A stretch of 64,000 bases of DNA, from positions 2,944,001 through 3,008,000 of the forward strand of contig OZ253462.1 in NCBI GenBank assembly GCA_965261395.1. The letters are read 5' to 3'. This DNA comes from Candidatus Latescibacterota bacterium. Lineage in GTDB: Bacteria > Latescibacterota > UBA2968 > UBA8231. Below, piece by piece: positions 19,174 to 35,778 of the stretch. The notes below the pieces were generated by a model that was given only the letters and a program-made list of their open reading frames with translations, ran no database searches and was not told the DNA's origin. The stretch's first letter is position 1, and each line of letters starts with the position of its first letter. The position numbers and the translations under genes are program-made.

Positions 19174-19327
19174 GGGATCTCCTCGTTGTAAAGGGGGAAG
19201 CAAAACCCGAGCAAACGTTGAAAATTGTCGTAAGATACTGTTTTTACAAGATATTTTAACATCCGAGACATCCGCTTATCGCCCAAAATCAAAACCCGAT
19301 CAAACGTTGGCCTCTCACGCCCAAAAC
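19139..19327. repeat. ~180-190 bp imperfect direct repeat, copy 1
   Basis: Matches 20818-20993, including CAAACGTTGAAAAT.GTCGTAAGATACTGTTTTTACAAGA and TCACGCCCAAAAC. Confidence 0.85.
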
Positions 19328-20817: not shown

Positions 20818-20993
20818 CCGTGCTTGGTGCCGCTTTGCGCCATACGGTCTCGCGGAAAGGTGGAATCAAAACCTGATCAAACGTTGAAAATCGTCGTAAG
20901 ATACTGTTTTTACAAGAGACTTTAACATCCGAGACATCGGCTTTGCGCCCAAAATCAAAACCCGATCAAACGTTGGCCTTTCACGCCCAAAAC
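20818..20993. repeat. ~180 bp imperfect direct repeat, copy 2
   Basis: Copy of 19139-19327 with an internal deletion. Confidence 0.85.
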
Positions 20994-21316: not shown

Positions 21317-24300
21317 CGGCTCATCCCCGCGTGTGCGGGAACATATTGCAGAGAGTCGCGGCGTAACAACTTCACCCGGCTCATCCCCGCGTGTGCGGGG
21401 AACATTTAATAGTTTGCCACATAATGTGGTTAACTAGCGGCTCATCCCCGCGTGTGCGGGGAACATACAATGTGAAATCTACGCTGGGGCACCGCATCCG
21501 GTTCATCCCCGCGTGTGCGGGGAACATCACCATTCGCAGATCGTAGTCGTTCACGCTAACGGTTCATCCCCGCGTGTGCGGGGAACATCAGGTTCATCGG
21601 ATATAGAGCGCCAGCGGCGACGGTTCATCCCCGCGTGTGCGGGGAACATTTGGTAGGCAACCCCCCATCATTGGACCAGGCCGGTTCATCCCCGCGTGTG
21701 CGGGGAACATATGCTGATGCTGGCGAGGGCGAAGGGGTTCATCCCCGCGTGTGCGGGGAACATCTCGACAAGGCCCGCGACCGGTCAGCCAAGACCGGTT
21801 CATCCCCGCGTGTGCGGGGAACATATGGTGGAGGTCATAGTCACCCTCTCCAAGCTCGGTTCATCCCCGCGTGTGCGGGGAACATTTGCAGATGTTGACG
21901 GGTGCATAATGCGTATCCGGTTCATCCCCGCGTGTGCGGGGAACATGATGTAAATTTCCTGTGTCGCGCGCCGTCTGCCGGTTCATCCCCGCGTGTGCGG
22001 GGAACATTTCACGCAGGCGGCCAAAGAAGGCAACGTCCGCGGTTCATCCCCGCGTGTGCGGGGAACATTCCCTGGTCTGCCGAACCGAATCGCTAAAATC
22101 CGGTTCATCCCCGCGTGTGCGGGGAACATATTAACGCTCATAGCATCCAGCCCCACCACGCCGGTTCATCCCCGCGTGTGCGGGGAACATGGGGTCAGAA
22201 TACCCATCAGGATATTTCCTTTCGGTTCATCCCCGCGTGTGCGGGGAACATCGCCCCAAGTGGTGCATCATGCACACCAAGGTCGGTTCATCCCCGCGTG
22301 TGCGGGGAACATTGCTCAATCCAAGTCGAACCCGATCTTTCGAGCGGTTCATCCCCGCGTGTGCGGGGAACATCGGCCTCAGTCCCTCTACAATAACATG
22401 ACCATCGGTTCATCCCCGCGTGTGCGGGGAACATCAACAGCTCGAAGACCTCATCGTCAGACAACTCGGTTCATCCCCGCGTGTGCGGGGAACATTGGTG
22501 GTGGTGGCCCTCCGCCGCCGATGTAAACGGTTCATCCCCGCGTGTGCGGGGAACATAGATTATGTATATATCGGCGCAACATCTACGCCGGTTCATCCCC
22601 GCGTGTGCGGGGAACATACCATGGCAACGCAAAACGTATTTCAGATCATCGGTTCATCCCCGCGTGTGCGGGGAACATCCACTTCGGTTTTTTTGAACGC
22701 GAAGGCTTCCCGGTTCATCCCCGCGTGTGCGGGGAACATCCACTTCGGTTTCTTCGAACGCGAGGGTTTTCCGGTTCATCCCCGCGTGTGCGGGGAACAT
22801 ACGACCTAGGATACAATTACAACTCAGCCGGCCGGTTCATCCCCGCGTGTGCGGGGAACATCAAGTCTCAGCCGAGCCCCATTTCTTCTCAGACGGTTCA
22901 TCCCCGCGTGTGCGGGGAACATAAAAACTCGCCTTTTTTGATCGCGTTGAACGCCGGTTCATCCCCGCGTGTGCGGGGAACATAAGCTCGGCCCCATGAC
23001 GTTGCGGTACTCTAACGGTTCATCCCCGCGTGTGCGGGGAACATCTGGGGCTTGAGCCTATGTCGGGGTCGCTTATCGGTTCATCCCCGCGTGTGCGGGG
23101 AACATTCGCAATGCCTTATTGCTTTGCGCGTCAACGTCGGTTCATCCCCGCGTGTGCGGGGAACATCTCCCTGTCGTCAAGGTGAAACAAGGTGCGACCG
23201 GTTCATCCCCGCGTGTGCGGGGAACATTTCGCGCAAGCCCTTTGCCGCTTCTGCGATCTCGGTTCATCCCCGCGTGTGCGGGGAACATTTCGTCAAAGCC
23301 TTTATGCTCGCCCGCAAAGCCGGTTCATCCCCGCGTGTGCGGGGAACATATGCTTGTAACCTTCTGAATGAGGTTGCAAGGCGGTTCATCCCCGCGTGTG
23401 CGGGGAACATTTCCCTATCGAGCAACAGCAGAGAATCAAAGTCGGTTCATCCCCGCGTGTGCGGGGAACATATCTCCTTCTTGACCGCGCTCGCGTCGAT
23501 GTCCGGTTCATCCCCGCGTGTGCGGGGAACATTTCGCATCTGAGCGCGTCCAGCACAAATTTCCCGGTTCATCCCCGCGTGTGCGGGGAACATTTTCGTC
23601 AAAGCCTTTATGCTCGCGTCGATGTCCGGTTCATCCCCGCGTGTGCGGGGAACATATGCAAGCAACCTGCTGAATGAGGTTGCAAGGCGGTTCATCCCCG
23701 CGTGTGCGGGGAACATCTATTGTATTGATTGTATTGAAACGCGAAACACGGTTCATCCCCGCGTGTGCGGGGAACATTAGGGTCAGTATCCTGCGAAGCG
23801 ATGCAATCCTGGTTCATCCCCGCGTGTGCGGGGAACATAAGCAACTGACGTATTGTATTGACGCGAAACACGGTTCATCCCCGCGTGTGCGGGGAACATT
23901 GTAAAGGAATCGCTCGCCGACTCGCTGCCGACGGTTCATCCCCGCGTGTGCGGGGAACATATCGCCAGTCAATGCAGTCCGGTAGAGTCAAGCGGTTCAT
24001 CCCCGCGTGTGCGGGGAACATACGGCGAAACTGCTCGACACCTATGTCGATAGCGGTTCATCCCCGCGTGTGCGGGGAACATACGCCGGGACAATCCGGC
24101 AAAACGCTTTACCACGGTTCATCCCCGCGTGTGCGGGGAACATATACAGATCAGATCAGATCAGATCAGATCAGCCGGTTCATCCCCGCGTGTGCGGGGA
24201 ACATTTTAAAATAGTGGTGGAAAGTGCTTGACAATGCGGTTCATCCCCGCGTGTGCGGGGAACATAAAAGGCCAGCGGTTAAAATTTAACTATTGACCGG

Positions 24301-25424
24301 TTCATCCCCGCGTGTGCGGGGAACATGTTTAACTCCCCTCACGGGAGGAGCCTATCACCGGTTCATCCCCGCGTGTGCGGGGAACATGCGCGCTCGGGGC
24401 TTTTCTCGATGCGCGTTTTCGGTTCATCCCCGCGTGTGCGGGGAACATAGGTAGGCCGTGTACGGCCCGGTTGCCGATACCGGTTCATCCCCGCGTGTGC
24501 GGGGAACATCGGTTTAACTGCCATTGCTGGCAGCCCATCACCGGTTCATCCCCGCGTGTGCGGGGAACATTGCGATAGGGAGCGCGTTTATTGTGCGTGT
24601 TACGGTTCATCCCCGCGTGTGCGGGGAACATTCTCAATTATTGCTTGTGTTGGTATCGGCTACCGGTTCATCCCCGCGTGTGCGGGGAACATCGGTTTAA
24701 CTCCCGTCGCCGGGAGCCCATCACCGGTTCATCCCCGCGTGTGCGGGGAACATTTCTGCAAAGCCTTTATGCTCGTCCTCAGGGCCGGTTCATCCCCGCG
24801 TGTGCGGGGAACATTGTAAAGGAAACGCCCGCCGGCTCGTCGCCGACGGTTCATCCCCGCGTGTGCGGGGAACATTCCGGTTGGAACAAGGTAGGTTTTT
24901 CCTGCTACGGTTCATCCCCGCGTGTGCGGGGAACATGTGTGGGCTGAACTTTGGATCAGCCCGTGCGGCGGTTCATCCCCGCGTGTGCGGGGAACATCCT
25001 TGTGAGTGTGCTGCGTTTCCTGGGCTGAGCGGTTCATCCCCGCGTGTGCGGGGAACATAATATCGGCCAGCTTGGCCGATACAATGTTCGCGGTTCATCC
25101 CCGCGTGTGCGGGGAACATTGAGCAACTTCGGCAATCAGCAAGGCAAGGGCCGGTTCATCCCCGCGTGTGCGGGGAACATCCTCTATCGTCAAGTATCTC
25201 TGGGTGCTGCGTCGGTTCATCCCCGCGTGTGCGGGGAACATCGGGTGCTAATGGCGTTGAATAGTGCGAGTAGCGGTTCATCCCCGCGTGTGCGGGGAAC
25301 ATCTGGTATTCTTCGTCCAGGTGTTTGCGAGCATCGGTTCATCCCCGCGTGTGCGGGGAACATAATACCCGCACTCACATGAGGTAAATTTCAATCGGTT
25401 CATCCCCGCGTGTGCGGGGAACAT
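21317..25424 (-). CRISPR. type I-E CRISPR array, 68 repeats / 67 spacers
   Basis: 29-bp repeat CGGTTCATCCCCGCGTGTGCGGGGAACAT (+) = ATGTTCCCCGCACACGCGGGGATGAACCG (-), 61-bp period, mostly 32-nt spacers (one 24 nt, one 33 nt). Degenerate CGGCTC repeats at the 21317 end mark the trailer. Confidence 0.99.
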
Positions 25425-25529
25425 ACTTAATCGTAACTGCTTGCTACAGTTTAGGTTATATGCCATGCAAAATAGCTACCGACTATTTGACCCCCGATTC
25501 ACCCACTCCACATATGCCGAGAACATACT
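25425..25529 (-). promoter_or_regulatory. CRISPR leader
   Basis: AT-rich non-coding segment between the cas2 stop and the conserved end of the array. Confidence 0.8.
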
Positions 25530-25808
25530 TCACTCAGGCAAAAAAGATACGAGTCGAAGACCGTCAAAATCCACAGGTATCCGGCGGTTTGTGCCAAAGG
25601 TTTCAAACTCAAACCCCGCGTCATTGGGGGCGGCCCAAGCAATCACAGCATCACCGTCGCCGATGAGCTCGCACACATTGTCGCGGATCATAGCGCGGGT
25701 CTTTGCCGAGTAGTTGCCGATATAGACACCGGCTCGAAGTTCCAGAAGCCAAACCGCGAGCCGGCCCCGCAGGCGCGGCGGCACATTATTAGTCACCACT
25801 ATCATCAT
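25530..25808 (-). CDS. cas2: type I-E Cas2
   Basis: PPRLRGRLAVWLLELRAGVYIG...VDFDGLRLVSF. Confidence 0.97.
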   Translation of the reverse strand: MMIVVTNNVPPRLRGRLAVWLLELRAGVYIGNYSAKTRAMIRDNVCELIGDGDAVIAWAAPNDAGFEFETFGTNRRIPVDFDGLRLVSFLPE

Positions 25809-26752
25809 CCTCGATGGCCCTCATCTCCGCTTGAAGGTGGATCGGCAAAGGCCGGGCCTACCGCATCATCTGGCATTTTCGGCGGCGGCAACTCGCCCGC
25901 TGCGAGCACTTCTCCGATGGTTGGAATCAGTCGCCTGAGCAGCTTGGTTCTGCGGAACGTGTCCCGACACGCCAAGCGCACTTCGCGCACAGGCTCGGCA
26001 GAACGCCCCTTCGCGTGCTGTCCCGCAATGCGAAACGCTGTCGGCACCGCCGTCTCAAATTTGAATAAATCGGCAATGTCGTACACAAAGGAGAGGGGTT
26101 TACCAGTATGCAAGAAGCCGACTGCTGGGGCATATCCAGCCGCGAGCACGGCGGCTTCCGTAATGCCGTAGAGGCAGGCAGTTGCTGCCGAGAGGCAGCG
26201 GTTGGGCACATCGGAGAAGTTCCAATCCGAAGGATCGTAGCTGCGCCTTTTCCACTGTACTCCAAACTGCCGCGCCAAATTCTCATAAAGCGCACGTACA
26301 CGCGCCCCCTCAATTCCGCGAAGCTGTTCGACAGAACGGCGTTGCGGCGCTCGCTCGTCAAATCGGATTTGATACATCCGCCGCACGATCTTCAGCCGAG
26401 CGTCGGGGTCAAGCGCGAGGCGGCACTGCCACAGAAGCCTGTCGGACCGGGCACCTCCCGGCTGACCAGCCGCGTATAGGCGCACCCCGGCTTCACCGAC
26501 CCATATCAGCAAAGTACCGACCCGTGCGGCGAGTGCCACTGCAGCATGACTGACCCGCGCACCAGGTTCGAGCATGATGCAAGCCAACCCGCCAACGGGG
26601 ATGTGCGTCCGCACCCCCTTTACATCTACGAGCACAAAAGCTCCATCGAGTACGTCGAGTTGGCCCTTCTCCACAAAAACGATAGAGGTGCGGTCCTTTA
26701 TGGGGATCGGCTTGGGGGGCGGAGCACCCGGCATTCTGTCAGGGCTAGCCAT
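25805..26752 (-). CDS. cas1: type I-E Cas1
   Basis: LEPGARVSHAA, VGEAGVRLYA, QLRGIEGARVR, GFLHTGKPLSFVYDIAD. Confidence 0.98.
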   Translation of the reverse strand: MASPDRMPGAPPPKPIPIKDRTSIVFVEKGQLDVLDGAFVLVDVKGVRTHIPVGGLACIMLEPGARVSHAAVALAARVGTLLIWVGEAGVRLYAAGQPGGARSDRLLWQCRLALDPDARLKIVRRMYQIRFDERAPQRRSVEQLRGIEGARVRALYENLARQFGVQWKRRSYDPSDWNFSDVPNRCLSAATACLYGITEAAVLAAGYAPAVGFLHTGKPLSFVYDIADLFKFETAVPTAFRIAGQHAKGRSAEPVREVRLACRDTFRRTKLLRRLIPTIGEVLAAGELPPPKMPDDAVGPAFADPPSSGDEGHRG

Positions 26753-26775
26753 CAAGCGATCCTGCGTATAAGCGA

Positions 26776-26865
26776 TGGTTCATCCCCGCATGTGCGGGGA
26801 ACACAGAGGTAGTCATCAGGCGATCCTGCGCATGAGTGGGTCATCCTCGCGTGTGCGGGGAACAT
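26776..26865 (-). CRISPR. mini-array (degenerate repeat-32 nt spacer-degenerate repeat) at the cas6e/cas1 junction
   Basis: Repeats 26776-26804 and 26837-26865; spacer 26805-26836 matches 26741-26772 at 26/32. Confidence 0.9.
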
Positions 26866-27608
26866 CTGCGTATAAGCATCAGGCCGCAGCCAAATGCCTT
26901 GCCGCGCCCGAATCCCTGCCGAAGGCGGGCGAGAAACGAGTTAGGCTCGGTTATGGTCAAAGCACCTTTGAGGTCGAATATGCCCAAAGTGCCGAATTTC
27001 CCACCGCGCCGTGCGAAACGCTCGGCTCGATAGCCTTCGAGCATCAGTGCGTCAAGGCAGAATCCGTATGCTTCGGCCCGCGCCGCTAGCCAGTCGTAGG
27101 CCGCCTTTTTGGCAAACTGCATCCGATACTTGGCGCGGTTGAGGGATTCATCCCCGCGTGTGCGGGGAACATTCTTGAGCAAGTCCATGGCCACATCGCA
27201 GCGTTGCCGTATGGCCGGTTCATTCCCGTGTGTGCGAGAAACTTTCCGATCGACCGTGGCGTTAAGGCGCAGATCGAACGCCAGCCGGTCTCCTGGCGAG
27301 AGTGTCGGCTCGAAGGGCTTCGTCTCGATAGCGAAGAAGGGAGAGTCTTCCAAAGGCTTGGGGCCGAGAAGATAGTACCGCCCGCGCTGGCGGTCGGCCC
27401 GCCAAAGAAACGCGGATTTCGGCGTACCGGCAGTCCGGCTCTGCTCTACCTCAGTACGCACATTTGGCGGGATGACCGTCCAGATCAGCCGGTGATCTAC
27501 CGCGAGGCGGTCAGACGACTTTGATGGCTGAAGGACCTGTAGCAGGGGAGCTATGTCTGCGGCGTCGCGCCGGAGCGTAAGACGCGAAAAGTGGAGTGGC
27601 TCACTCAT
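26841..27608 (-). CDS. cas6e: Cas6e (Cse3/CasE) with repeat-derived insertions
   Basis: HRLIW, LAFDLRLNAT, GFGRGKAFGCGLML Gly-rich loop. Confidence 0.95.
   Translation of the reverse strand: MSEPLHFSRLTLRRDAADIAPLLQVLQPSKSSDRLAVDHRLIWTVIPPNVRTEVEQSRTAGTPKSAFLWRADRQRGRYYLLGPKPLEDSPFFAIETKPFEPTLSPGDRLAFDLRLNATVDRKVSRTHGNEPAIRQRCDVAMDLLKNVPRTRGDESLNRAKYRMQFAKKAAYDWLAARAEAYGFCLDALMLEGYRAERFARRGGKFGTLGIFDLKGALTITEPNSFLARLRQGFGRGKAFGCGLMLIRRCSPHTRG
27144..27244 (-). CRISPR. two CRISPR repeats embedded in frame in the cas6e CDS, 43 nt apart
   Basis: 27144-27172 matches consensus at 27/29; 27216-27244 at 24/29. Confidence 0.85.
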
Positions 27609-28321
27609 TGCGAAGCCTCCTCTTGGTCAGTGGGAACGTATTCGTATTCGCGCCGTTGCCCGAACTGCCAGCTCGTGCGGTCGCCCGGCTCGTCCATCCG
27701 CAGTCGCATCCGCAAGGAAGCATCGAGAGGACCGAGGTCCGCCCGATCCTCCACGGCGATTAGGCCATTCGGCCCATCGCTATGGCGCTTGAACGCATCA
27801 ACGACCGTTTGTGCTTCAATGATCTCCGGCGCGAGTGGGTGGGACAGTGGGCAGGACTTGCGCCCTAAATACAATGTATAAGCTGGCTTCTCAAACCCAG
27901 CTTTGAGGTCCCGCAACGAGTATCGTCCGCCCGATATGGCTCGGTAAGCCGCCTGATAGCGCACATCTGTGCGGTACTCTCGGTGGGTGATACTCGTCGC
28001 AAGGTCCAAGGGATGGGAAAGTGCCTCCGCTCTAGTTCGGGGATGTCCCTTGGCCGAAGGCAGCGACTGGTAAGTGTGAAAATCCGTCACCAACGTCCCG
28101 GCGCACAGGGTGCGAGTAGCGACGCGGAAAGAGGCAGCAAGCGCCCGCTGCCCTTCCGCATCGGCGCGATCAATACCCAGCGCCGCGCCCGCCATCCCCA
28201 AAAGGGCAGATCGCGTTGGACGGTCGGCCGTGCCACGCCGCACATTGCCTGCCTCTTCGCCGAAGCTGGCAAAGGGTGCGGCCAAGGTAATAATTAACCA
28301 TTTCCTCGGTTCACCATTCAT
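27605..28321 (-). CDS. cas5: Cas5e (CasD)
   Basis: LAAPFASFGE...PTRSALLGMAGAALG, DFHT, REY, LYLGRKSCP. Confidence 0.96.
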   Translation of the reverse strand: MNGEPRKWLIITLAAPFASFGEEAGNVRRGTADRPTRSALLGMAGAALGIDRADAEGQRALAASFRVATRTLCAGTLVTDFHTYQSLPSAKGHPRTRAEALSHPLDLATSITHREYRTDVRYQAAYRAISGGRYSLRDLKAGFEKPAYTLYLGRKSCPLSHPLAPEIIEAQTVVDAFKRHSDGPNGLIAVEDRADLGPLDASLRMRLRMDEPGDRTSWQFGQRREYEYVPTDQEEASQ

Positions 28322-28353
28322 TTTAGTCCCTTCGGGAATATATGTGGTTCGTG

Positions 28354-28443
28354 CGGTTCGTCCCCGCGGATACGGGGAACATCCTACGTGTAGTTGGATG
28401 TCGTCGCTTCAATCCGGTTCATCCCCGCAGGTGCGGGGAACGT
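28354..28443 (-). CRISPR. mini-array (repeat-32 nt spacer-repeat) between cas7 and cas5
   Basis: CGGTTCGTCCCCGCGGATACGGGGAACAT (28354-28382), spacer 28383-28414, CGGTTCATCCCCGCAGGTGCGGGGAACGT (28415-28443). Confidence 0.9.
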
Positions 28444-28462
28444 TTTGCCAAATAGCAAATTG

Positions 28463-29521
28463 CTACAGTTCCTCCGCTGCGAAGGCGGCTAGCTCCTCCA
28501 ACATGGCACTATCCTCTTCACCTACATGGAGTTCGCTGGCTTCCCAATCGTCGTCGTAGGTCTTCGCAAAGGCGGTACGCTGCTTCTTGAGTACCTTTAC
28601 GGACTCCCCGAGTTGGTCTTCCGATTTTACCGGCTTGGTGAAGGCACTAGCCAAGCTGCGAGGTTGGCTATCCCCGCGCTCTAACAACATGTATTCGGCG
28701 CGTACGTGATTGGCGAAGCTGTTTTTCTTACCGGAAGGCGATGCGGTCGCCGCAGCGCGTACTAGCGCGGAGAGCGCACGGCCTGCCAGTTCTGTATCGC
28801 TCGCAAGATTTTCCAGCAGCAGGACCCTATTTACGCAGATGTAGAGATAGAAGACGCCAGCGCCGAAACCCGCCTCTCCGATGAAACCCGCGCCCGCATC
28901 CTCTTCTGGGGTCTTCAGATCGTCAACAGCCGTGTAGTAGTCATCTTCAATATCGACTCGGTTGGTGGTAAAGGCATGAGCCACTTGCACGGCGGCATCG
29001 CGGTTGAAGTCGGGGTTGTCAGCCAACATGCGCCCGAACATAGCAATGTCCACGGCACCGTCGGCAGTGCTTAGGACCTGTTTCGCCAGTTCCTTTTCCT
29101 TCGGTAAGGTTTCCCCGCTCAGTGCCTTTTCTGCCAAATCGAATGCAGCAGCGCGTTCCTCCGGCGAGATGAAGGCTAGCTGTTCGGTATAGGCCGGATT
29201 TGGGTCTTTCTCATTCTTTACTTTACCGAACAGAGCAGCGATGGTCCGGGCGATTTCGAGCGCCTTGTCCTCCGAAGCACCCTTTTCTAGCAGATGCTCT
29301 CGCACCTTGTCGCCCATACGCTGCGTGCGCTCGCCTAGCTTTCCCGTTAGGGCGGACCGGAAAGCGTCGTCCGTGCGGATGGCGCGTTTGAGGGCTTGGC
29401 TGGAAATGCGCATCCGCGACACACCGCCGATGAAAGCGGTCTTGGGACGGCCGAGGTCGTCTCGGTTGGGGTTAGACGGTGGATAGGCTGTCAGAACGTG
29501 CATTTGCACAAAGCGGCTCAT
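28463..29521 (-). CDS. cas7: Cas7e (Cse4/CasC)
   Basis: YPPSNPNRDDLGRPK, RISSQALKRAIR, DIAMFGRM, DYYTAVDD, PSGKKNSFA. Confidence 0.97.
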   Translation of the reverse strand: MSRFVQMHVLTAYPPSNPNRDDLGRPKTAFIGGVSRMRISSQALKRAIRTDDAFRSALTGKLGERTQRMGDKVREHLLEKGASEDKALEIARTIAALFGKVKNEKDPNPAYTEQLAFISPEERAAAFDLAEKALSGETLPKEKELAKQVLSTADGAVDIAMFGRMLADNPDFNRDAAVQVAHAFTTNRVDIEDDYYTAVDDLKTPEEDAGAGFIGEAGFGAGVFYLYICVNRVLLLENLASDTELAGRALSALVRAAATASPSGKKNSFANHVRAEYMLLERGDSQPRSLASAFTKPVKSEDQLGESVKVLKKQRTAFAKTYDDDWEASELHVGEEDSAMLEELAAFAAEEL

Positions 29522-30090
29522 AGTTGAGTCTCCTCTTGGGGTTGGGTGTTCTCTGCGGCATCGGTCCGCCGCGTGTGATAGTAATCAAAGGTCCATTTCT
29601 GCCGAGTCTGGTCGTTAAAGAAAAGCACATCGCCGATAAAGCGAGGAACGTCGAATGGCGCATCGCCCAAAATAGCAAGGGTCCGGCGCAGTGCCCGTGC
29701 GAACATGTCCACATCAGTGCCATCCTTGAGCAGGTTGCTGAAGCGCATGGGCGACAGGCGTGGACGGGCGTCGCCTTTGGGGATGGAACCATCCCACGTG
29801 AGGCCCAAGGCGTCAGCGAAGGGGGGGAGATGGGCGGTCCTCTCGGAGGGTTTAACCCGCGCAAGGGCCATAGCCAGCACGGCGAGGCGCTGCTCAAGCG
29901 CGTGGCCGGCGGTAGCCTTTTCATGCACACTGGCGATCAACCTGTGGGTTTCTGGCTCTAAGAGGGCGTCGAATACGCTTTCGCAGCGCTTCAGCCGCGC
30001 CCGTGCACCCCGGTCTCCGTGGTCCGCGTGAAGCGATACCCACCAGTTCACCACTGCATTGACGGTAGGGTTATTTCGGTTGAGCTGCAT
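29518..30090 (-). CDS. cas11: Cas11e (Cse2/CasB)
   Basis: DRGARARLKRC, LSPMRFSNLL, WTFDYY; position between cas8e and cas7. Confidence 0.92.
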   Translation of the reverse strand: MQLNRNNPTVNAVVNWWVSLHADHGDRGARARLKRCESVFDALLEPETHRLIASVHEKATAGHALEQRLAVLAMALARVKPSERTAHLPPFADALGLTWDGSIPKGDARPRLSPMRFSNLLKDGTDVDMFARALRRTLAILGDAPFDVPRFIGDVLFFNDQTRQKWTFDYYHTRRTDAAENTQPQEETQL

Positions 30091-31748
30091 TAAGCGGTCT
30101 CCTTTTTGGTTTTGGATTTTTTCTCTGGCAAAGGAAGTTCGAGCTTGTCGTAAAGCGACTTGCTCTGCTTGGTCCAGCCAGCAAAGGTTGCGTTCAAGAT
30201 GCCGTAGGCATTGACGATTGTCTTGGCCTTCTCGGCGTCTTGCAAGGGCACGGGTGCCAGTCGGTCAAAAGTCGCAAGGGCTGCGCGGCGCATGATACCT
30301 AGCCAGTGCCGTGCGAGAGCGGTCTGGTCGAAGCCCCCATCTTCGGGCATTTCTTGGAGCAGATCGTCGAGCAGGTGGTGGAATTGGTCCTCGGTTGCGT
30401 CGAAGAAATCAGCCCGCGCTTGGTCGAGAATCCCCTTATCGTTTGAGGCATTCTTCTGGCCGCTGAAAAGTGCCTTTTTCAAGGCTGTTAACAACTGAGA
30501 AACCGCTTGATCGGCGGCTTCGGAGAAATGTCGGGCGAGATCGTCGAGAGCCTGTTGTTGATCGGATGTATTCGCCAGATGCAAAGGCTCCTCGGCGATG
30601 AGATAGGCGATTGCTTCCATGTTGTTCATGGCCCAACCGCCAACGCGGATGCGAGCATCGGCCGCTTGTTTATTCTGGCTAAGGGAATGGGAGCGATTAT
30701 TCTTGGAGAGCTTGATATTTGTGGGCTGTTCAGCCAGCTTGCCATCCTTGCTCCCTACCGTGACGGCAACCCAGTCTCGATAGCCAAAGCGTCCTGATTT
30801 TGGCTTGGCCGAATACGGCTCCCCTGCCTCTTTCAGGCGGCGGTAGGGCGTCAGCGGATGCTGCCATAGCCCATAATTTGTGCCGTAGGGCCTCTGGATA
30901 AATCCGGTGACCAGCGGTTCTTTTCTGCCGGTCATGGAGCAGATGCCCGGCTCGCTGGAAAAGACTAGCTGGATGCGGCGCGGCATACCGAAATACGCCT
31001 GCAAGGGGTGGGCGTCTGCTAGAGATACAGTACGACTTTTTTCCGATGTGAGTGTCGGGGCCATCCAAGGCAGGGCCTTGGGCAACTCATCTATTGGGAG
31101 TCGTTTATCGCAAGGCACCACATTGGCGAAAATTTTGTGCCACAAAGGCACGGGCGTTGCATCGTCATTAGTCGCCGGAACGACCAGTGCCGTCAAAGGC
31201 CCGCCTCCACGCATGGAAGTGCGGTTCCCGGCACCGCCGGCCGGCGCGTAGGCTTGCAGGGTGTACAGCGTCATGGCCGCAGCCGGTAGGCCAAGGGCAG
31301 CATAGCGGTTGCGGTGAGTCAATAGGTCCGAGTTTTTGCGCTGGCCGTTTTGCCCTGGTGTGTCGATGAGCAGTAGTTCAATAGGAGTTTCGTTGCCTTG
31401 CAGGGGCTCATAGTCCTGTAGGAAGCGCGGCCCTTCGCCGTTGAGATAGAAGGCAGAAACAAGAGGGGCGAGCTTTTCGGCGAGCGCGTCTCTATCCGGC
31501 GGATTGGTCCAAAAAGGACGCCAGTCGTCCTCTTCGCGGATATCGAAGGCCAACGAAATCACGCCGATGCAGAACTCGAAGCTCGCCATGTTGAAATCCG
31601 GGCGCGGCCAGTTAAACTCGACCGGGTAGTCTTCATCCAAGCCGTTGCTTTTGGGTCCAGCCACTAGTTCGGGAAAGGCAAGCCATCTCTGTGCTCCAGA
31701 TCGCATGACGACCGGGAGAAAGGGATCACTGAGCAGATTAAAAGTCAT
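30090..31748 (-). CDS. cas8e: Cas8e (Cse1/CasA)
   Basis: FNLLSDPFLPV, PRFLQD, APAGGAGNRTSMRGGGPLT, MPRRIQL, HPLTPY; AAGGAG RBS. Confidence 0.96.
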   Translation of the reverse strand: MTFNLLSDPFLPVVMRSGAQRWLAFPELVAGPKSNGLDEDYPVEFNWPRPDFNMASFEFCIGVISLAFDIREEDDWRPFWTNPPDRDALAEKLAPLVSAFYLNGEGPRFLQDYEPLQGNETPIELLLIDTPGQNGQRKNSDLLTHRNRYAALGLPAAAMTLYTLQAYAPAGGAGNRTSMRGGGPLTALVVPATNDDATPVPLWHKIFANVVPCDKRLPIDELPKALPWMAPTLTSEKSRTVSLADAHPLQAYFGMPRRIQLVFSSEPGICSMTGRKEPLVTGFIQRPYGTNYGLWQHPLTPYRRLKEAGEPYSAKPKSGRFGYRDWVAVTVGSKDGKLAEQPTNIKLSKNNRSHSLSQNKQAADARIRVGGWAMNNMEAIAYLIAEEPLHLANTSDQQQALDDLARHFSEAADQAVSQLLTALKKALFSGQKNASNDKGILDQARADFFDATEDQFHHLLDDLLQEMPEDGGFDQTALARHWLGIMRRAALATFDRLAPVPLQDAEKAKTIVNAYGILNATFAGWTKQSKSLYDKLELPLPEKKSKTKKETA

Positions 31749-31770
31749 TGATATCTCCTTAAAATATATA

Positions 31771-31821
31771 ACTAACCAACAGCTTACTACATACTCTAAA
31801 GAGGCAATCGTACCTTGTCAA
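31771..31821 (-). promoter_or_regulatory. sigma70-type promoter of cas8e with adjacent ATG PAM and crRNA-like RNA target
   Basis: TTGACA (31821-31816), 17 bp, TAGAGT (31798-31793), then ATG (31792-31790) and TAGTAAGCTGTTGGTTAGT (31789-31771). Confidence 0.8.
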
Positions 31822-31842
31822 GGGCAAGTTGCGGTCCATCAT

Positions 31843-31919
31843 TAATTAATCCCCGTGTGTACGGGGAACACGTTAGCCGACAGCATACTACGGCTCATTC
31901 CCGCGTCTGCGGGACAACA
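31843..31919 (-). ncRNA. CreR/CreA-like crRNA-like regulatory RNA (degenerate repeats with a 19-nt spacer)
   Basis: Repeats 31891-31919 (overlaps the cas3 stop) and 31843-31871 with compensated stems; spacer TAGTATGCTGTCGGCTAAC matches the cas8e promoter region. Confidence 0.85.
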
Positions 31920-34633
31920 AATCTAAAGCCCAGTCGGGCACAGTACATAAAATAACCGTCATCCTTCGCCCCTTCCAATCGCACCCTACTGCCCCCTTCT
32001 ACCACGGCTATCAATATTTCGCGTTCCCACTCCGGCCAGTCGCTTTTGGCCTGCTCTTGAAGGGCTTGGTCCTCGGGCGATGGCGAGGCTCCAGCGAGAA
32101 AATTCTCCCGTACCCGGATTTCAGACAAGGCCCAAGCCCTGTTGGGATCGTCGTCGGGTACCGTGCACCAAGGAATAAGACGATCTTCCTCTATACGAGC
32201 CAAACGCAACATAACGGTCGGCTCTCCCAGCCGAGTGCCAATATCTTCTGTGCCGCTCAATTCCGTCGGCAGGCTACCGTAGCCCTCTTCTAGGCTGACG
32301 ACGTTAAATCGGCCCAGCGAGCGACTGCCCATTTCCTTCCCTTCGTCTTCGATTTGCTTTTCTTCAAGGGCTGGCGGCACATCCCCATTGGCGTAAACGT
32401 ATTCAATCAACGGGCGAAAACTTTCCGGCGTGTCAATACATCCAGCGTCGGACAGGGCCTTCGCGCTGCGCCACATCACGCCGGCATTTTGATAGACAAA
32501 CGCTGCCTTGCCGAGTGCCGGCTCAAGCCAGTTTTGGTCTTCTACCTGATCCGGGTCCGGCGAGACTATGAGGGTATGCGGACTCTCTACAGGGCGGCTT
32601 TCCGGTGGACGCTTGTCCAAATGACGCCACATCCGACCAGCGCGCTGGATGATAAGATCCACTGGCGCGAGGTCCGAAATGACGAGATCAAAGTCGAGGT
32701 CGAGGCTTTGCTCAACCACCTGCGTGGCTACAAGGATATGGCCGGCCCGGCCTGTCGCTTTGGCGTCGCGCCCGAATCGGCGCAATACATCATTTTCTAT
32801 GACCTGCCTATCGCTTTGGGCAAACCGAGCGTGGAAGAGGTGAATGTGATCTGGGTTGTCCATTTGGCCCACAAGCGATTCATATACAGCGATGGCCTCA
32901 TCTACTGCGTTGCAGATGACCAGCACGGCCGCTTCCTCTTTTGCTGCGGAGAGAGCTCGTGTCTCGGCGGTTATTCGGTCGGGCAGGCGTTCTACCGTTA
33001 CGCTACGACGCAACGCAGAATCGAATCCCGACTCGCATTCCTGTACTCCGCCGATTGTGGCCGAGGTGAGCAGCGGGTACGCCTCACTGCATAGTTGATC
33101 GCTCAGATCTTCTGGGTCGCGCAAGCCGAGACCCTTGGCAAACGCCTCTGCCATATCGCGACGTTGCTGCAGAGATAAGGTCGCAGAGAGCACTATGGCG
33201 GAGCCGCCGTTTTGGGCGTGAAGTTCCAGCAGCGCGGAAAGTTCCTCGCCCATATAGGCATCAAAGCAATGGGCTTCATCAACTATGAGGATGCGGCCAG
33301 CCAGCCCGTATTGACGCAAGGTTAGATGTCTTTTAGGGAGGATCGAGAGAAAGGCTTGGTCAATGGTCCCCGCTCCGACATCTGCGTAAAAGGCTTTTCT
33401 TCGGTCGTCTGCAATCCATTGGGCGCAAAAGGCGGATGCGGTTTCATCCTCGCTGCCATTGGCCATGTCAGTGGAGTTGACGATGGCGCGGAACGCCTCG
33501 GACAGGTTCGACCTGCCGTGTGCCAAGACGAGTGAGAGGTCTTCGGAGGCTGAAGTTTCAAACAGCTTCTGGTAAGTCACCGCCAGCCGCTCGTACATAG
33601 CGTTGGCCGTTGCCATAGTCGGCAGCGCAAAGTACAGACCCTCGCCTTTGCCCGCCGCCATCATCCGGGCTGCGAGCATGATGGCCGCTTCTGTTTTACC
33701 GGCCCCTGTGGTGTCTTCTAAGATGAACAACTGCGCTCCGTCCTTGAGCGGTGCTTCTTCCGCCAGTTTCTGCATGGGTCTTGGATGAGGGGCAGCTTGT
33801 GGAGCAAAACTAGCATAACTCGGACGGGACTCCGGGGACTGGGCCAGTAACCCCTTTCCCACTAGGGCTTTTTCGGCCTGAGTAAGCGCCCACTCCCAAT
33901 AGTCCTCCAGCCTCGTATCGACCGATTCAAAAGAGAAGTAATCGGAGTCTGAACCGACCCAGTCGGCCAGTGTGACAAGCCCTGACAAGCGCCAAGACCA
34001 CTGCGCCGTCTGCTTCTGCTTTTCGAGAGACGATAGAGGCAGAGGCTCTATCAGGTTCCGGAGCATACAAAAGGCAGTATGAGCCGCGTCCACGCATTCC
34101 TCACCAAGCTGCTGGTCGCGCCGAGCTTTGCCTGGATCGGCATTTACTTCATCCTGTCCCTCGGGTGGTCGTCCATGGTGCCCCGCAATGGCAGCAATGA
34201 TCGGTGCTATATCATAAGGGATGCTAGGGAATAAGCTGGCGAACTCTTGGGATATTGGCTCGGCCCTGAGAAGGATAGCCGTGTTGCGCCAATGACCACG
34301 GTCGGCGATTTCTCTCTTCGGGCCAAGGACCTGCTCTGGCCACAATTGGGGTACCTTCGCCTGAAAGCTGCGTGAAAATTTGCCAAGATCGTGTATGCCA
34401 GCCAGAAAAGCAGTGATCTTGGATAAGCACTCTGGACTCGCTTTCAACAAAGCGGCCTCGCGCTCAAGACGGGCAGGATTCAATTGCTGCCATCGCAGGG
34501 CGACAGCAGCGACATCCATCAAATGATGTAAGACAGGCTTATAGCTACGTGTATCATTGAATACAGTTTCCGAGGAATTGCCAGCACTACGAAGCGTCTT
34601 GCCCCAAAATTCCAAGAGGCGGGCGGCTTCCAT
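31895..34633 (-). CDS. cas3: Cas3 HD nuclease-helicase
   Basis: HLMDVAAV, HDLGK, HHG, DWVGS, TTGAGKTE, DEAH, LSAT, ATQVVEQSLDLDFD, QRAGR; likely start MEAARLL 1 nt after the upstream stop. Confidence 0.97.
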   Translation of the reverse strand: MEAARLLEFWGKTLRSAGNSSETVFNDTRSYKPVLHHLMDVAAVALRWQQLNPARLEREAALLKASPECLSKITAFLAGIHDLGKFSRSFQAKVPQLWPEQVLGPKREIADRGHWRNTAILLRAEPISQEFASLFPSIPYDIAPIIAAIAGHHGRPPEGQDEVNADPGKARRDQQLGEECVDAAHTAFCMLRNLIEPLPLSSLEKQKQTAQWSWRLSGLVTLADWVGSDSDYFSFESVDTRLEDYWEWALTQAEKALVGKGLLAQSPESRPSYASFAPQAAPHPRPMQKLAEEAPLKDGAQLFILEDTTGAGKTEAAIMLAARMMAAGKGEGLYFALPTMATANAMYERLAVTYQKLFETSASEDLSLVLAHGRSNLSEAFRAIVNSTDMANGSEDETASAFCAQWIADDRRKAFYADVGAGTIDQAFLSILPKRHLTLRQYGLAGRILIVDEAHCFDAYMGEELSALLELHAQNGGSAIVLSATLSLQQRRDMAEAFAKGLGLRDPEDLSDQLCSEAYPLLTSATIGGVQECESGFDSALRRSVTVERLPDRITAETRALSAAKEEAAVLVICNAVDEAIAVYESLVGQMDNPDHIHLFHARFAQSDRQVIENDVLRRFGRDAKATGRAGHILVATQVVEQSLDLDFDLVISDLAPVDLIIQRAGRMWRHLDKRPPESRPVESPHTLIVSPDPDQVEDQNWLEPALGKAAFVYQNAGVMWRSAKALSDAGCIDTPESFRPLIEYVYANGDVPPALEEKQIEDEGKEMGSRSLGRFNVVSLEEGYGSLPTELSGTEDIGTRLGEPTVMLRLARIEEDRLIPWCTVPDDDPNRAWALSEIRVRENFLAGASPSPEDQALQEQAKSDWPEWEREILIAVVEGGSRVRLEGAKDDGYFMYCARLGFRFVVPQTRE

Positions 34634-34634
34634 C

Positions 34635-35402
34635 TCAGCGGCCCATCCACCCGCCATCGACGATTGCGATGGTCCCATGGACGTAGTCGGCTGCTCGCGA
34701 CGACAGCCACACCACCGCGCCTTTTAAGTCGTCCGGCGTGCCCCACCGGCCCGCTGGAATCCTCACCAGTAGTTGCTCGTTGCGCACGGGGTCGTCGCGC
34801 AGGGCCTGATTGTTGTCGGTGGCGATATAGCCGGGGGCAATGGCATTGACGTTGACCCCGCGACCGGCCCATTCGTTGGCCAGCGCCATCGTCAACTGCC
34901 CGATCCCGCCCTTGGCCGCGGCATAGCCCGGCACTGTGATCCCGCCTTGGAAGGTCAGCACCGAAGCGGTAAAGACGATCTTGCCCCGGCCGCGGGAGAG
35001 CATCTGCTTGCCGAATTCCCGCGCCAGCACGAACTGCGCGTTTAAGTTGACCTCGATGACGTGATCCCAGTCTTCGTCTCCATGTTCCTCAGCCGGGGCG
35101 CGCCGAATGGTACCGGCATTGTTGATGAGGATGTCGATTGGGCCGACCTCGGTGTTGACCTGCTCGACGAAGGCGCGGACCGCTGCCCGGTCGCTGAAAT
35201 CGCAAGCGTATCCTTTGAAGCGCTTGCCGCGCTTGGCAATGTCTTTGCCGACCTCGGAGTCTACTTCCAGCGAGGCGCTGACGCCGACGATATCTGCGCC
35301 CGCCTCGGCCAATGCTTGCGCGAACCCGCGTCCGATGCCTCGACGGCATCCGGTGACCAGCGCCGTTTGGCCGTCGAGCTTAAAGAGATCCAAAATCCCC
35401 AT
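34635..35402 (-). CDS. SDR oxidoreductase (2-dehydro-3-deoxy-D-gluconate 5-dehydrogenase KduD-like)
   Basis: TGCRRGIG, NNAGTIRR, FQGGITVPGYAAAK, DGGWMGR. Confidence 0.85.
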   Translation of the reverse strand: MGILDLFKLDGQTALVTGCRRGIGRGFAQALAEAGADIVGVSASLEVDSEVGKDIAKRGKRFKGYACDFSDRAAVRAFVEQVNTEVGPIDILINNAGTIRRAPAEEHGDEDWDHVIEVNLNAQFVLAREFGKQMLSRGRGKIVFTASVLTFQGGITVPGYAAAKGGIGQLTMALANEWAGRGVNVNAIAPGYIATDNNQALRDDPVRNEQLLVRIPAGRWGTPDDLKGAVVWLSSRAADYVHGTIAIVDGGWMGR

Positions 35403-35403
35403 G

Positions 35404-35778
35404 CTATTCTCCTTGGTTCTGTCCTTGAAGAACGGTCAATGCATCCCACGTCGCCGGAAATCCGCCGAAAGCGCTCATCTGCAACATGACCTCCTCAATC
35501 TCCGTCCTTGTGGCTCCACAACCAAGGGCTCGGTCGATGTGAACAGCAAGCTGTTCCGGCCTGCCGAGAACCGTCAAGGCCGCGATCGTACACAGCAGAC
35601 GGGTCTTGATGTCCAGCCCGTCCCGTCCGTACAGGTCATGCATCACGTGCTCCATCACGAGTCGCTCGAACTCGGGATGAAGTGTGCGCATCTTCTTGGC
35701 AGCGGCCTCTGCAGCGGCCTCTCCGAGCATCGTCGAGAGAACTCTGCGCCCTGCTTCGTAGCGTTGACTTTCAGTCAT
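35404..35778 (-). CDS. carboxymuconolactone decarboxylase family protein
   Basis: RDGLDIKTRLLCTIAAL...H...GATRTEIEEV...GFPA. Confidence 0.85.
   Translation of the reverse strand: MTESQRYEAGRRVLSTMLGEAAAEAAAKKMRTLHPEFERLVMEHVMHDLYGRDGLDIKTRLLCTIAALTVLGRPEQLAVHIDRALGCGATRTEIEEVMLQMSAFGGFPATWDALTVLQGQNQGE

What the first reader, a model, noticed from the sequence alone, without database searches (positions are those of the whole stretch)
26837..31919. cas3 and cas6e take their stop codons from a repeat handle, so Cas6e cleavage would create non-stop mRNAs
Seen: cas3 ends GTC CCG CAG ACG CGG GAA TGA GCCG (VPQTRE-stop, 31895) and cas6e ends TCC CCG CAC ACG CGA GGA TGA CCCA (SPHTRG-stop, 26841). 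In both, the TGA is the one in the 8-nt ATGAACCG-type handle. Known: Cas6e cuts 8 nt from the repeat 3' end, which is 1 nt before these TGAs, and non-stop mRNAs trigger tmRNA tagging and proteolysis. Inference: maturation of the regulatory RNA would strip the stop codon and route Cas3 and Cas6e to degradation, a post-transcriptional brake. The cas6e-end stem has one C-A mismatch that may weaken cutting.
Basis: inference. Interest (0 to 1): 0.8.

Follow-up and report, generated by a model that had tools for sequence, protein, structure and literature searches.

The report
cas gene stops inside mini-CRISPR repeats
Two genes of a bacterial CRISPR immune system end inside copies of the CRISPR repeat that belong to small regulatory mini-arrays, so the enzyme that trims CRISPR RNA could also cut off these genes' stop signals, which is plausible but untested.

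Summary
On the minus strand, a complete type I-E locus has cas3 and cas6e ending on the TGA at positions 23-25 of a 29-nt repeat-like element. The canonical Cas6e cut, between positions 21 and 22, lies 1 nt upstream.

Both elements are the first repeat (psiR1) of degenerate mini-CRISPRs. Array A, at the cas3 end, is a CreR-type regulator. Its 19-nt guide matches an ATG-flanked site next to the cse1 promoter, and the array is a conserved island in four relatives.

The cas3 stop lies in the handle in 11 of 61 usable I-E loci, which needs at least 5 changes on a Cas3 tree. In 10 others the stop sits 0-17 nt upstream of psiR1. Stop removal is therefore not needed for the regulator. TGA is the only stop in any frame of the repeat.

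The cas6e case (array B) occurs only in this genome and has a weakened hairpin.

The operon holds four mini-arrays. One lies inside the cas6e ORF and includes a repeat whose 21-nt hairpin is identical to the array's.

The non-stop mRNA follows if psiR1 is cut. tmRNA is present. No cleavage data exist. A selected brake is unproven.

The parts
31895..34678 (-). cas3 ORF (927 aa). The conserved core ends at residue 919 (..GFR). The last 8 codons and the stop are encoded by psiR1-A.
31891..31919 (-). psiR1-A, a repeat-like element with a 6-bp hairpin and handle ATGAGCCG. The cas3 stop TGA is at 31897-31895 (repeat positions 23-25). The predicted Cas6e cut lies between 31899 and 31898.
31872..31890 (-). 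psiS-A, the 19-nt guide of the CreR-like RNA.
31843..31871 (-). psiR2-A, the degenerate second repeat (intact hairpin, handle decayed to ATTAATTA).
31793..31821 (-). Sigma-70-like promoter TTGACA-17-TAGAGT upstream of cse1 (10 of 12 matches). It is the only minus-strand promoter-like site found in 25200-35600.
31771..31792 (-). ATG PAM (31792-31790) plus the 19-nt target of psiS-A. They differ at guide positions 6, 12, 15, 18 and 19, which is 2 of the 16 positions that are not every sixth.
30090..31748 (-). cse1 (cas8e), first gene of the Cascade operon.
28354..28443 (-). Mini-array C between cas7 and cas5: two near-canonical repeats and a 32-nt spacer with no target in this genome. It is shared with L002 and L003.
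26841..27608 (-). cas6e ORF (255 aa). The last residues CSPHTRG and the stop are encoded by psiR1-B.
27144..27244 (-). Mini-array-like pair D inside the cas6e ORF. psiR1-D is at 27244-27216 and psiR2-D at 27172-27144. The first 21 nt of psiR2-D are identical to the array repeat. Both are read in the stop-free repeat frame (VSRTHGNEP ... NVPRTRGDES).
26837..26865 (-). psiR1-B, whose hairpin has one C-A mismatch and whose handle is ATGACCCA. The cas6e stop TGA is at 26843-26841. The predicted cut lies between 26845 and 26844.
26805..26836 (-). psiS-B, a 32-nt spacer that is a diverged copy of the cas6e/cas1 junction.
   Evidence: (family D14)
26776..26804 (-). psiR2-B, a near-canonical repeat.
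26741..26775 (-). TCG followed by a 32-nt site matching psiS-B (6 of 32 differ; 2 of the 27 positions that are not every sixth). It covers the cas1 ribosome-binding site and start, and it is the ancestral cas6e-stop/cas1-start overlap.
25805..26755 (-). cas1, with cas2 following at 25530-25808.
21317..25424 (-). Main CRISPR array: 68 repeat hits with a 61-nt period.

Best explanation
The two stop codons belong to psiR1, the first repeat of two degenerate mini-CRISPRs embedded in a type I-E cas operon.

Array A (cas3 end) is a CreR-type regulator. Cas6e would cut psiR1-A and psiR2-A out of a transcript reading through from cas3. This would give a short crRNA-like RNA that guides Cascade to an ATG-flanked, partly matching site just after the -10 box of the cse1 promoter, repressing the Cascade operon.

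In this lineage the 3' end of cas3 has become fused to psiR1. The gene now reads through the hairpin and stops at TGA, the only stop in any frame of the repeat. Array B (cas6e end) is a recent, lineage-specific insertion of repeat-spacer-repeat into the old cas6e-stop/cas1-start overlap. It rewrote the cas6e tail in the same frame.

The stop-in-handle layout is therefore mainly a structural by-product. Its consequence is real if psiR1 is cut: each processed cas3 mRNA ends 1 nt before its stop. The same may hold for cas6e mRNA. Such an mRNA becomes a non-stop template that trans-translation would tag and clear.

Shown: the anatomy, conservation, guide-target pairing and presence of tmRNA. Inferred: cleavage at psiR1, the fate of the truncated mRNA, and any effect on protein levels.
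For: Guide A:
- The best non-self matches of guide A in the genome have 2 mismatches in the 16 scored positions. There are two such sites, and one lies 100 nt downstream with an ATG PAM beside the promoter.
- The same unit occurs in L001-L004 and L006. Guide and target change together at positions 9 and 12.
- In 22 distinct guide/target pairs from related loci, positions 6, 12 and 18 differ in 45 of 66 cells, against 33 of 330 at other positions. The pairs were chosen by low mismatch at those other positions, so that figure is biased low. Positions 1-5 differ in 1 of 110 cells.

Conservation and structure:
- The mini-array is a conserved island: 6 of 77 columns vary, against 96 of 287 in the cas3 3' part.
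- The hairpins are kept.

Fusion and insertion:
- Cas3 of L006, L015, L007 and L009 aligns only to residue 919, followed by unrelated tails. The window and L001-L005 align to residue 927.
- Array B is absent from L001-L007, where the cas6e stop overlaps or abuts the cas1 start on the same sequence that lies downstream of psiR2-B here.

Survey and supporting facts:
- The cas3 stop lies in the handle in 11 of 61 usable sources. This needs 6 changes on the Cas3 tree (5 forced by well-supported branches). No listed case reads through psiR1 in another frame.
- tmRNA is present, with the tag DETNTYALAA.
- From the literature: Cas6e cuts 8 nt before the repeat end and keeps the hairpin bound; a 21-nt hairpin alone directs Cse3 cleavage; I-E CreR and mini-arrays upstream of casA are known.
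Against: - No RNA ends were seen. Only contigs of two RNA-labelled runs with small shares were available.
- One RNA-library contig (X19, record 4, about 93% identical) runs uncut from 31568 past 32000. That is either unprocessed read-through RNA or DNA carried in the library.
- psiR1-A has A, not G, at position 21 and only a 6-bp stem. psiR1-B has a C-A mismatch. Cas6e tolerance of these changes is unknown.
- The hairpins lie in translated sequence, so ribosomes may melt them.
- The absence of a separate promoter for the guide rests on one consensus scan.
- The mismatches between guide B and its target at positions 3, 18, 24 and 30 equal the letters found in relatives such as L003. They may therefore reflect polymorphism rather than selection for Cascade pairing.
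Confidence: 0.6

Rival explanations
1. The stop-in-handle layout is a selected post-transcriptional brake. Cas6e strips the stops of cas3 and cas6e mRNA. tmRNA tags the products for proteolysis, which holds Cas3 and Cas6e down when Cas6e is abundant.
For: The geometry fits and tmRNA is present. The cas3 layout recurs in 11 of 61 sources, with at least 5 changes on the tree, and has been stable across a clade with 73-87% Cas3 identity. All overlaps seen use the frame with the stop. L005 keeps psiR1, with a 7-bp stem, at the cas3 stop although psiR2 and the promoter are gone. A repeat with an unchanged hairpin also sits inside the cas6e ORF. Repeat-like sequences are in general depleted in cas genes, so their presence in an ORF has consequences.
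Against: In 10 of 61 relatives the stop lies just upstream of psiR1, and in 4 it lies far away. The label is no more clustered on the tree than shuffled labels (104 of 500 shuffles as low). The TGA is conserved anyway, as part of the handle. The single frame can be explained by selection against long read-through tails. The cas6e case is unique to this genome, recent, and has a weakened stem. There are no expression data.
Confidence: 0.2
2. The overlap has no consequence. psiR1 inside translated mRNA is not cut to any useful extent, or the guide comes from its own start site. Full-length cas3 and cas6e mRNAs are then translated and terminated normally at the TGA.
For: An RNA-library contig bridges the cas3-end site uncut. 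psiR1-A departs from the array repeat at position 21 and at the base of the stem, and psiR1-B has a mismatch. Ribosomes unwind coding hairpins (established knowledge).
Against: psiR1-A is far more conserved than the neighbouring codons, and its only changes keep the hairpin. This is hard to explain for an 8-residue tail beyond the conserved Cas3 core. A crRNA-like guide needs its 8-nt handle, which Cas6e makes. No other minus-strand promoter-like site was found in 25200-35600.
Confidence: 0.2
3. Arrays B and D, and perhaps C, are non-functional scars of ectopic repeat insertion. Possible sources are recombination with the array or repair after self-targeting. They persist only because they fell in tolerated frames.
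For: B is found only in this genome. D is found only here and, decayed, in L006. C is found only here and in L002 and L003. Spacer C has no target in the genome. The letters of spacer B at four mismatch positions match relatives' alleles. The protospacer in relatives carries an ATG PAM, which fits a captured self or near-self spacer.
Against: The 21-nt hairpin part of psiR2-D is identical to the array repeat, while the L006 copy is decayed. Spacer C differs at only 2 of 32 positions between the window and L002/L003. Neither is expected of old neutral scars.
Confidence: 0.4

Closest known systems
CreR (Cas-regulating RNA) of type I-E, Salmonella enterica, upstream of casA (bioRxiv 10.1101/2023.03.10.532045; abstract, passages and section 9 read)
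   Same: It is a degenerate mini-CRISPR in the cas3-casA gap. Its spacer partly matches the casA/cse1 promoter region and predicts Cascade autorepression. Array A fits on anatomy, PAM and guide-target pairing.
   Different: Here psiR1 overlaps the last 8 codons and the stop of cas3, the guide is 19 nt, and the target lies after the -10 box. 'Stop codon' occurs 0 times in that text. Repression was not tested here.
Regulatory mini-arrays / repeat-like elements in CRISPR-cas loci (bioRxiv 10.1101/2023.03.03.530964; passages and section 20 read)
   Same: Mini-arrays occur in about 19% of bacterial I-E loci. Their targets lie at the cas8 promoter with a PAM, with mismatches at every sixth position. 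Cargo genes lie between the mini-array and the cas genes. The relatives surveyed here show all of this.
   Different: [quoted passage not shown] The ORF-overlapping psiR1 at the cas3 and cas6e ends, and the pair inside cas6e, are the class they left out. Supplements were not seen.
CreTA (CRISPR-repressed toxin-antitoxin), type I-B and others (as described in passages of the two preprints above)
   Same: A crRNA-like RNA with partial complementarity represses an adjacent promoter.
   Different: No toxin gene is evident between array A and cse1 in the window. The gap is 146 nt.
Viral Cracr and Racr RNAs (bioRxiv 10.1101/2024.10.29.618823, passages read; PMC10651486, search listing only)
   Same: They are short crRNA-like guides or solitary repeats that engage Cas6 or Cascade. 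A 24-nt I-E guide is processed by Cas proteins, which shows that short guides work.
   Different: Those are phage-borne. No viral copy of guide A was found: all 8 of 8 pattern hits lack a repeat.
Non-stop mRNAs made by endoribonucleases and rescued by tmRNA-SmpB; synthetic Cas6/Csy4 sites used to cut mRNAs (recalled; listings only)
   Same: A site-specific cut upstream of the stop would leave a template without a stop. tmRNA with an ..ALAA tag is encoded here.
   Different: Nothing here shows that this happens naturally for cas mRNAs. Searches listed no paper that, by title or abstract, links Cas6 cleavage to non-stop cas mRNAs.

Membership tests
CreR / regulatory mini-CRISPR of type I-E (array A) | Two repeat-like elements flank a spacer-like stretch inside the cas locus, in the array's orientation. 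| tested here: met
CreR / regulatory mini-CRISPR of type I-E (array A) | psiR1 keeps the hairpin and an 8-nt handle. | tested here: met
   6-bp stem, -11.0 kcal/mol, handle ATGAGCCG (equal to the L005 array handle)
CreR / regulatory mini-CRISPR of type I-E (array A) | The guide partly matches a PAM-flanked site at the effector promoter. | tested here: met
   ATG PAM, 2 of 16 scored positions differ, directly after the -10 box
CreR / regulatory mini-CRISPR of type I-E (array A) | The seed is conserved and every sixth position is free, across relatives. | tested here: met
   45 of 66 cells differ at positions 6/12/18 against 33 of 330 elsewhere, in 22 pairs
CreR / regulatory mini-CRISPR of type I-E (array A) | Cascade-dependent repression without DNA cleavage. 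| not testable with these tools
   needs a reporter assay
Cas6e substrate | A 21-nt hairpin (7-bp stem, 4-nt loop) like the array repeat. | tested here: inconclusive
   psiR1-A has 6 bp, psiR1-B has an inner C-A mismatch, psiR2-D is identical to the array hairpin
Cas6e substrate | G at position 21, next to the cut (stated for Thermus Cse3 in a passage). | tested here: inconclusive
   psiR1-A has A and psiR1-B has G. Whether this Cas6e needs G is unknown.
Cas6e substrate | RNA ends observed at the cut site. | not testable with these tools
   only contigs were available
Non-stop mRNA / trans-translation target | The mRNA 3' end lies upstream of every in-frame stop. | not testable with these tools
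   follows from the geometry only if the cut happens
Non-stop mRNA / trans-translation target | A tmRNA with a degradation tag is present in the genome. | tested here: met
   194 bits, over the cut-off; tag DETNTYALAA
Non-stop mRNA / trans-translation target | Tagged Cas3 or Cas6e protein. | not testable with these tools
   needs proteomics

The most novel reading that the evidence does not exclude
In this I-E lineage, Cas6e acts as a post-transcriptional regulator of its own operon. It would cut repeat hairpins placed at the cas3 stop, between cas7 and cas5, inside its own ORF and at its own stop. Making the CreR guide would then inactivate the cas3 mRNA it came from (non-stop, then tmRNA), and rising Cas6e would destroy cas6e mRNA. 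The result would be a self-limiting loop that also keeps Cas3 low while Cascade sits on a self target.
Probability: 0.2. Interest if true: 0.8.

Novelty: new variant of a known kind. Interest (0 to 1): 0.5.

Why it matters
Regulatory mini-CRISPRs are known, but they have been catalogued only where they do not overlap genes. Here the first repeat overlaps the end of cas3 in 11 of 61 related loci, and a repeat with an unchanged hairpin sits inside cas6e.

If Cas6e cuts these sites, control of cas genes has a second, RNA-level layer coupled to ribosome rescue. Censuses of such elements would then be undercounting them. The idea can be tested directly with a reporter and a catalytic Cas6e mutant. 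If Cas6e does not cut them, the case is an ordinary by-product of compact loci.

Tried and rejected
- **RNA evidence.** One run search gave 2 RNA-labelled runs, each with a 0.05 share. Laying them gave contigs only, with no ends, strand or level. Parts without cover say nothing.
- **More relatives from metagenomes.** One search gave no answer. The repeat of it matched 136 stretches, none a relative. A 20-nt DNA pattern found 0.
- **Viral mimic of guide A.** There were 8 pattern hits in viral contigs. None of the 8 has a repeat hairpin upstream, so they are chance.
- **Array-borne copy of spacer B.** No copy with 9 or fewer mismatches was found in the window or the 80 loci, apart from the junction sites.
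- **Every-sixth-position argument for array B.** Four of the 6 mismatches fall at positions 6, 18, 24 and 30. My own hypergeometric estimate is about 0.002; it was not computed in a call. I do not rely on it. Positions 3, 18, 24 and 30 carry the letters of relatives' alleles, and positions 3, 6 and 18 are third codon positions of the old cas6e frame.
- **Handle-like words at the cas3 stop of L010 and L013**. I dropped these as chance: the hairpins are poor, 4 of 15 positions mismatch, and there is no AAG or ATG PAM.
- **Rows dropped from the Cas3 tree**. Five of 61 rows were dropped, including L002, L003, L004 and L049. Their Cas3 could not be read as one frame from the tblastn start, or it was under 700 aa.
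- **First genome scan for spacer targets**. The thresholds were too loose and the output was cut. It was redone.
- **Supplements** of the papers were not seen. Their tables may list loci like these.

Full report
**What is there.** The window holds a complete type I-E locus on the minus strand:
- cas3 at 31895-34678
- cse1 at 30090-31748
- cse2 at 29518-30090
- cas7 at 28463-29521
- cas5 at 27605-28321
- cas6e at 26841-27608
- cas1 at 25805-26755
- cas2 at 25530-25808

An array follows at about 21317-25424. It gives 68 repeat hits with a 61-nt period, and its minus-strand repeat is ATGTTCCCCGCACACGCGGGGATGAACCG. The repeat folds into a 7-bp stem with a 4-nt loop over positions 5-22. This leaves AUGAACCG as the 8-nt handle. 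A review states that Cas6e cuts exactly 8 nt before the repeat-spacer junction. It also states that the ends are a 5'-OH and a cyclic phosphate and that the hairpin stays on Cas6 (passages).

**The observation.** cas3 ends ...GTC CCG CAG ACG CGG GAA TGA. cas6e ends ...TCC CCG CAC ACG CGA GGA TGA. An ungapped scan puts repeat-like elements at 31919-31891 and 26865-26837, with each stop at repeat position 23. The predicted cut is therefore 1 nt before each TGA. Only one of the three frames of the repeat contains a stop, so a gene that runs into a repeat stops in the handle one time in three.

**What the elements are.** Each is the first repeat of a repeat-spacer-repeat unit.

Array A consists of:
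- psiR1 at 31919-31891
- a 19-nt guide at 31890-31872
- psiR2 at 31871-31843

Downstream of array A lies the only minus-strand promoter-like site in 25200-35600. It is TTGACA-17-TAGAGT at 31821-31793. Directly after it comes ATG plus a 19-nt site that differs from the guide at positions 6, 12, 15, 18 and 19. Genome-wide, the guide's best non-self matches have 2 mismatches in the 16 positions that are not every sixth. There are two such sites, and this is one of them.

The same unit is present in L001-L004 and, fully intergenic, in L006. Guide and target change together at positions 9 and 12. In 22 distinct guide/target pairs from related loci, positions 6, 12 and 18 differ in 45 of 66 cells, against 33 of 330 at other positions. 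The second figure is biased low by how the targets were picked. Positions 1-5 differ in 1 of 110 cells. This is the signature of Cascade pairing.

It also matches published I-E CreR and regulatory mini-arrays. Array A is thus a new member of a known kind.

**How cas3 came to end in psiR1.** Cas3 of L006, L015, L007 and L009 aligns only to residue 919 (..GFR) and then carries unrelated short tails. In L006 a small ORF and about 400 nt separate cas3 from the mini-array. The window and L001-L005 align to residue 927, which is through psiR1. The 8-residue tail lies beyond the conserved core.

Among the window and L001-L004, the share of variable columns is:
- psiR1: 3 of 29
- the guide: 1 of 19
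- psiR2: 2 of 29
- the preceding cas3 sequence: 96 of 287
- third codon positions of that cas3 sequence: 43 of 92
- the neighbouring non-coding segments: 32-58%

The three changes in psiR1 are two loop positions and one C-to-U that keeps a G-U pair. This argues that psiR1-A is kept as RNA, most simply as a Cas6e site. It is therefore a fair deduction that processed cas3 transcripts lose their stop.

**How general it is.** Using Cas7, I fetched 80 related loci (the best 80 of 557 relatives). Of these loci plus the window, 61 of 81 sources had both a cas3 3' end and a cse1 start.
- The cas3 stop is the handle TGA in 11 of them: the window, L001-L005, L020, L049, L055, L058 and L065. Nine came from the automatic filter. 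L005 and L020 were added.
- In 10 the stop lies 0-17 nt upstream of psiR1. L064 and L080 look the same by eye.
- In 4 the stop is more than 100 nt away.
- In 36 no unit passed the filter.

On a Cas3 tree of 56 rows the in-handle state needs 6 changes, of which 5 are forced by well-supported branches. The state is no more clustered than shuffled labels. Of the 10 just-upstream loci, 4 are in frame with the handle TGA (my arithmetic on the positions). That is about the one third expected by chance. No listed locus reads through psiR1 in another frame.

The regulator therefore does not need the stop to be removed. When an overlap exists, it always uses the frame with the stop. This may mean only that longer read-through tails, or ribosomes running over the guide, are selected against.

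**The cas6e end.** Array B consists of:
- psiR1 at 26865-26837
- a 32-nt spacer at 26836-26805
- psiR2 at 26804-26776

It is absent from L001-L007. There the cas6e stop overlaps or abuts the cas1 start on the very sequence that lies downstream of psiR2-B in the window. No other source has a repeat-like hit at its cas6e stop, so the window is 1 of 75.

The spacer is a diverged copy of that junction, with 6 of 32 positions different. In relatives the homologous 32-mer has an ATG PAM. In the window the copy after psiR2 is preceded by TCG.

Four of the six mismatches fall on every-sixth positions. However, the spacer's letters at positions 3, 18, 24 and 30 equal those of L003, so polymorphism is an equally good account. 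Array B is a recent insertion that rewrote the cas6e tail from ..RIA to ..RCSPHTRG. Its function is open.

**More repeats in the operon.** The operon holds two further pairs of repeat-like elements.

Array C, at 28443-28354 between cas7 and cas5, has two good hairpins and a spacer with no target in this genome. It is shared with L002 and L003.

Pair D lies inside the cas6e ORF, at 27244-27216 and 27172-27144. It is read in the stop-free frame as VSRTHGNEP and NVPRTRGDES, on either side of a conserved Cas6e segment. L006 has a decayed version, and L001-L005 lack it.

The first 21 nt of psiR2-D are identical to the array repeat. A paper on Thermus Cse3 reports that a 21-nt hairpin tag alone directs complete cleavage, whatever the next nucleotide (passages). 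If the same holds here, cas6e mRNA carries a full Cas6e site in its own coding region. That is a stronger case for self-cleavage than the stop-in-handle.

A published census kept only repeat-like hits that do not overlap ORFs, and it found such sequences depleted in cas genes. This locus therefore goes against a general trend.

**Mechanism and its limits.** If psiR1-A is cut, the cas3 mRNA ends ...CGGGA with Cas6e bound to the terminal hairpin and no stop codon. Ribosomes reaching that end would need rescue. The genome encodes tmRNA (194 bits) with the tag DETNTYALAA. It is established knowledge that such tagging leads to proteolysis.

Several things remain unknown:
- how much cas3 mRNA is cut
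- whether ribosomes protect the site
- whether A at position 21 is tolerated
- whether the guide has its own start site

The only RNA data were contigs. One RNA-library contig of a relative, about 93% identical, bridges 31568 to beyond 32000 uncut. This shows either unprocessed read-through RNA or DNA in the library.

**Literature.** 'Stop codon' occurs 0 times in the three preprints searched by text. Searches listed no paper that, by title or abstract, links Cas6 cleavage with non-stop cas mRNAs. Supplements were not seen.

**Verdict.** The best reading has confidence 0.6. In it, the stops sit in psiR1 of regulatory or recently inserted mini-CRISPRs as a structural by-product, with a likely but unmeasured cost to the upstream mRNA when Cas6e cuts. 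A selected brake has a probability of about 0.2. Novelty is a new variant of a known kind, and interest is 0.5.

Noticed in passing
window 27144-27244 (-): Two repeat-like elements lie inside the cas6e ORF, read in the stop-free frame. The second has a 21-nt hairpin identical to the array repeat, so cas6e mRNA may be a substrate of its own product. L006 has a decayed copy, and L001-L005 have other residues and 6 fewer amino acids.
   Followed up: partly
window 28354-28443 (-); L002 11082-11171; L003 11093-11182: A mini-array of two near-canonical repeats and a 32-nt spacer lies between cas7 and cas5. It is shared by three genomes with only 2 spacer differences. It has no target in the window's genome (best 7 of 27 mismatches).
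   Followed up: partly
window 26741-26865 (-): Array B looks like a repeat-spacer-repeat cassette inserted into the cas6e/cas1 overlap. An 11-nt stretch (CTTATACGCAG) is present before psiR1, in the spacer, and after psiR2. Its origin is unexplained (ectopic integration, or repair from an array copy).
   Followed up: partly
L006 7198-7822; L015 3487-3867; L005 7760-7814: L006 has a small ORF and a three-repeat mini-array between cas3 and cse1. L015 has a decayed version. L005 keeps psiR1 at the cas3 stop but has lost psiR2 and the promoter (51-nt gap).
   Followed up: partly
L020, L024, L026/L028, L032, L033, L014 and others, between the mini-array and cse1: In alphaproteobacterial relatives the guide's target sits beside a TTGAC box. 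The promoter there is followed by a strong hairpin and small ORFs (350-750 nt) before cse1. This fits the 'cargo' or toxin-like genes described for mini-arrays.
   Followed up: no
window 22651-22800, 23288-23410 and 23594-23716 (array): Several array spacers are near-copies of one another (80-89% over repeat plus spacer). One unit is 53 nt instead of 61, near 21682-21735.
   Followed up: no
window 19190-19327 and 20856-20993: A 138-nt direct repeat (92% identical) flanks an ORF at 19315-20778, just beyond the far end of the array. It may be a mobile element.
   Followed up: no
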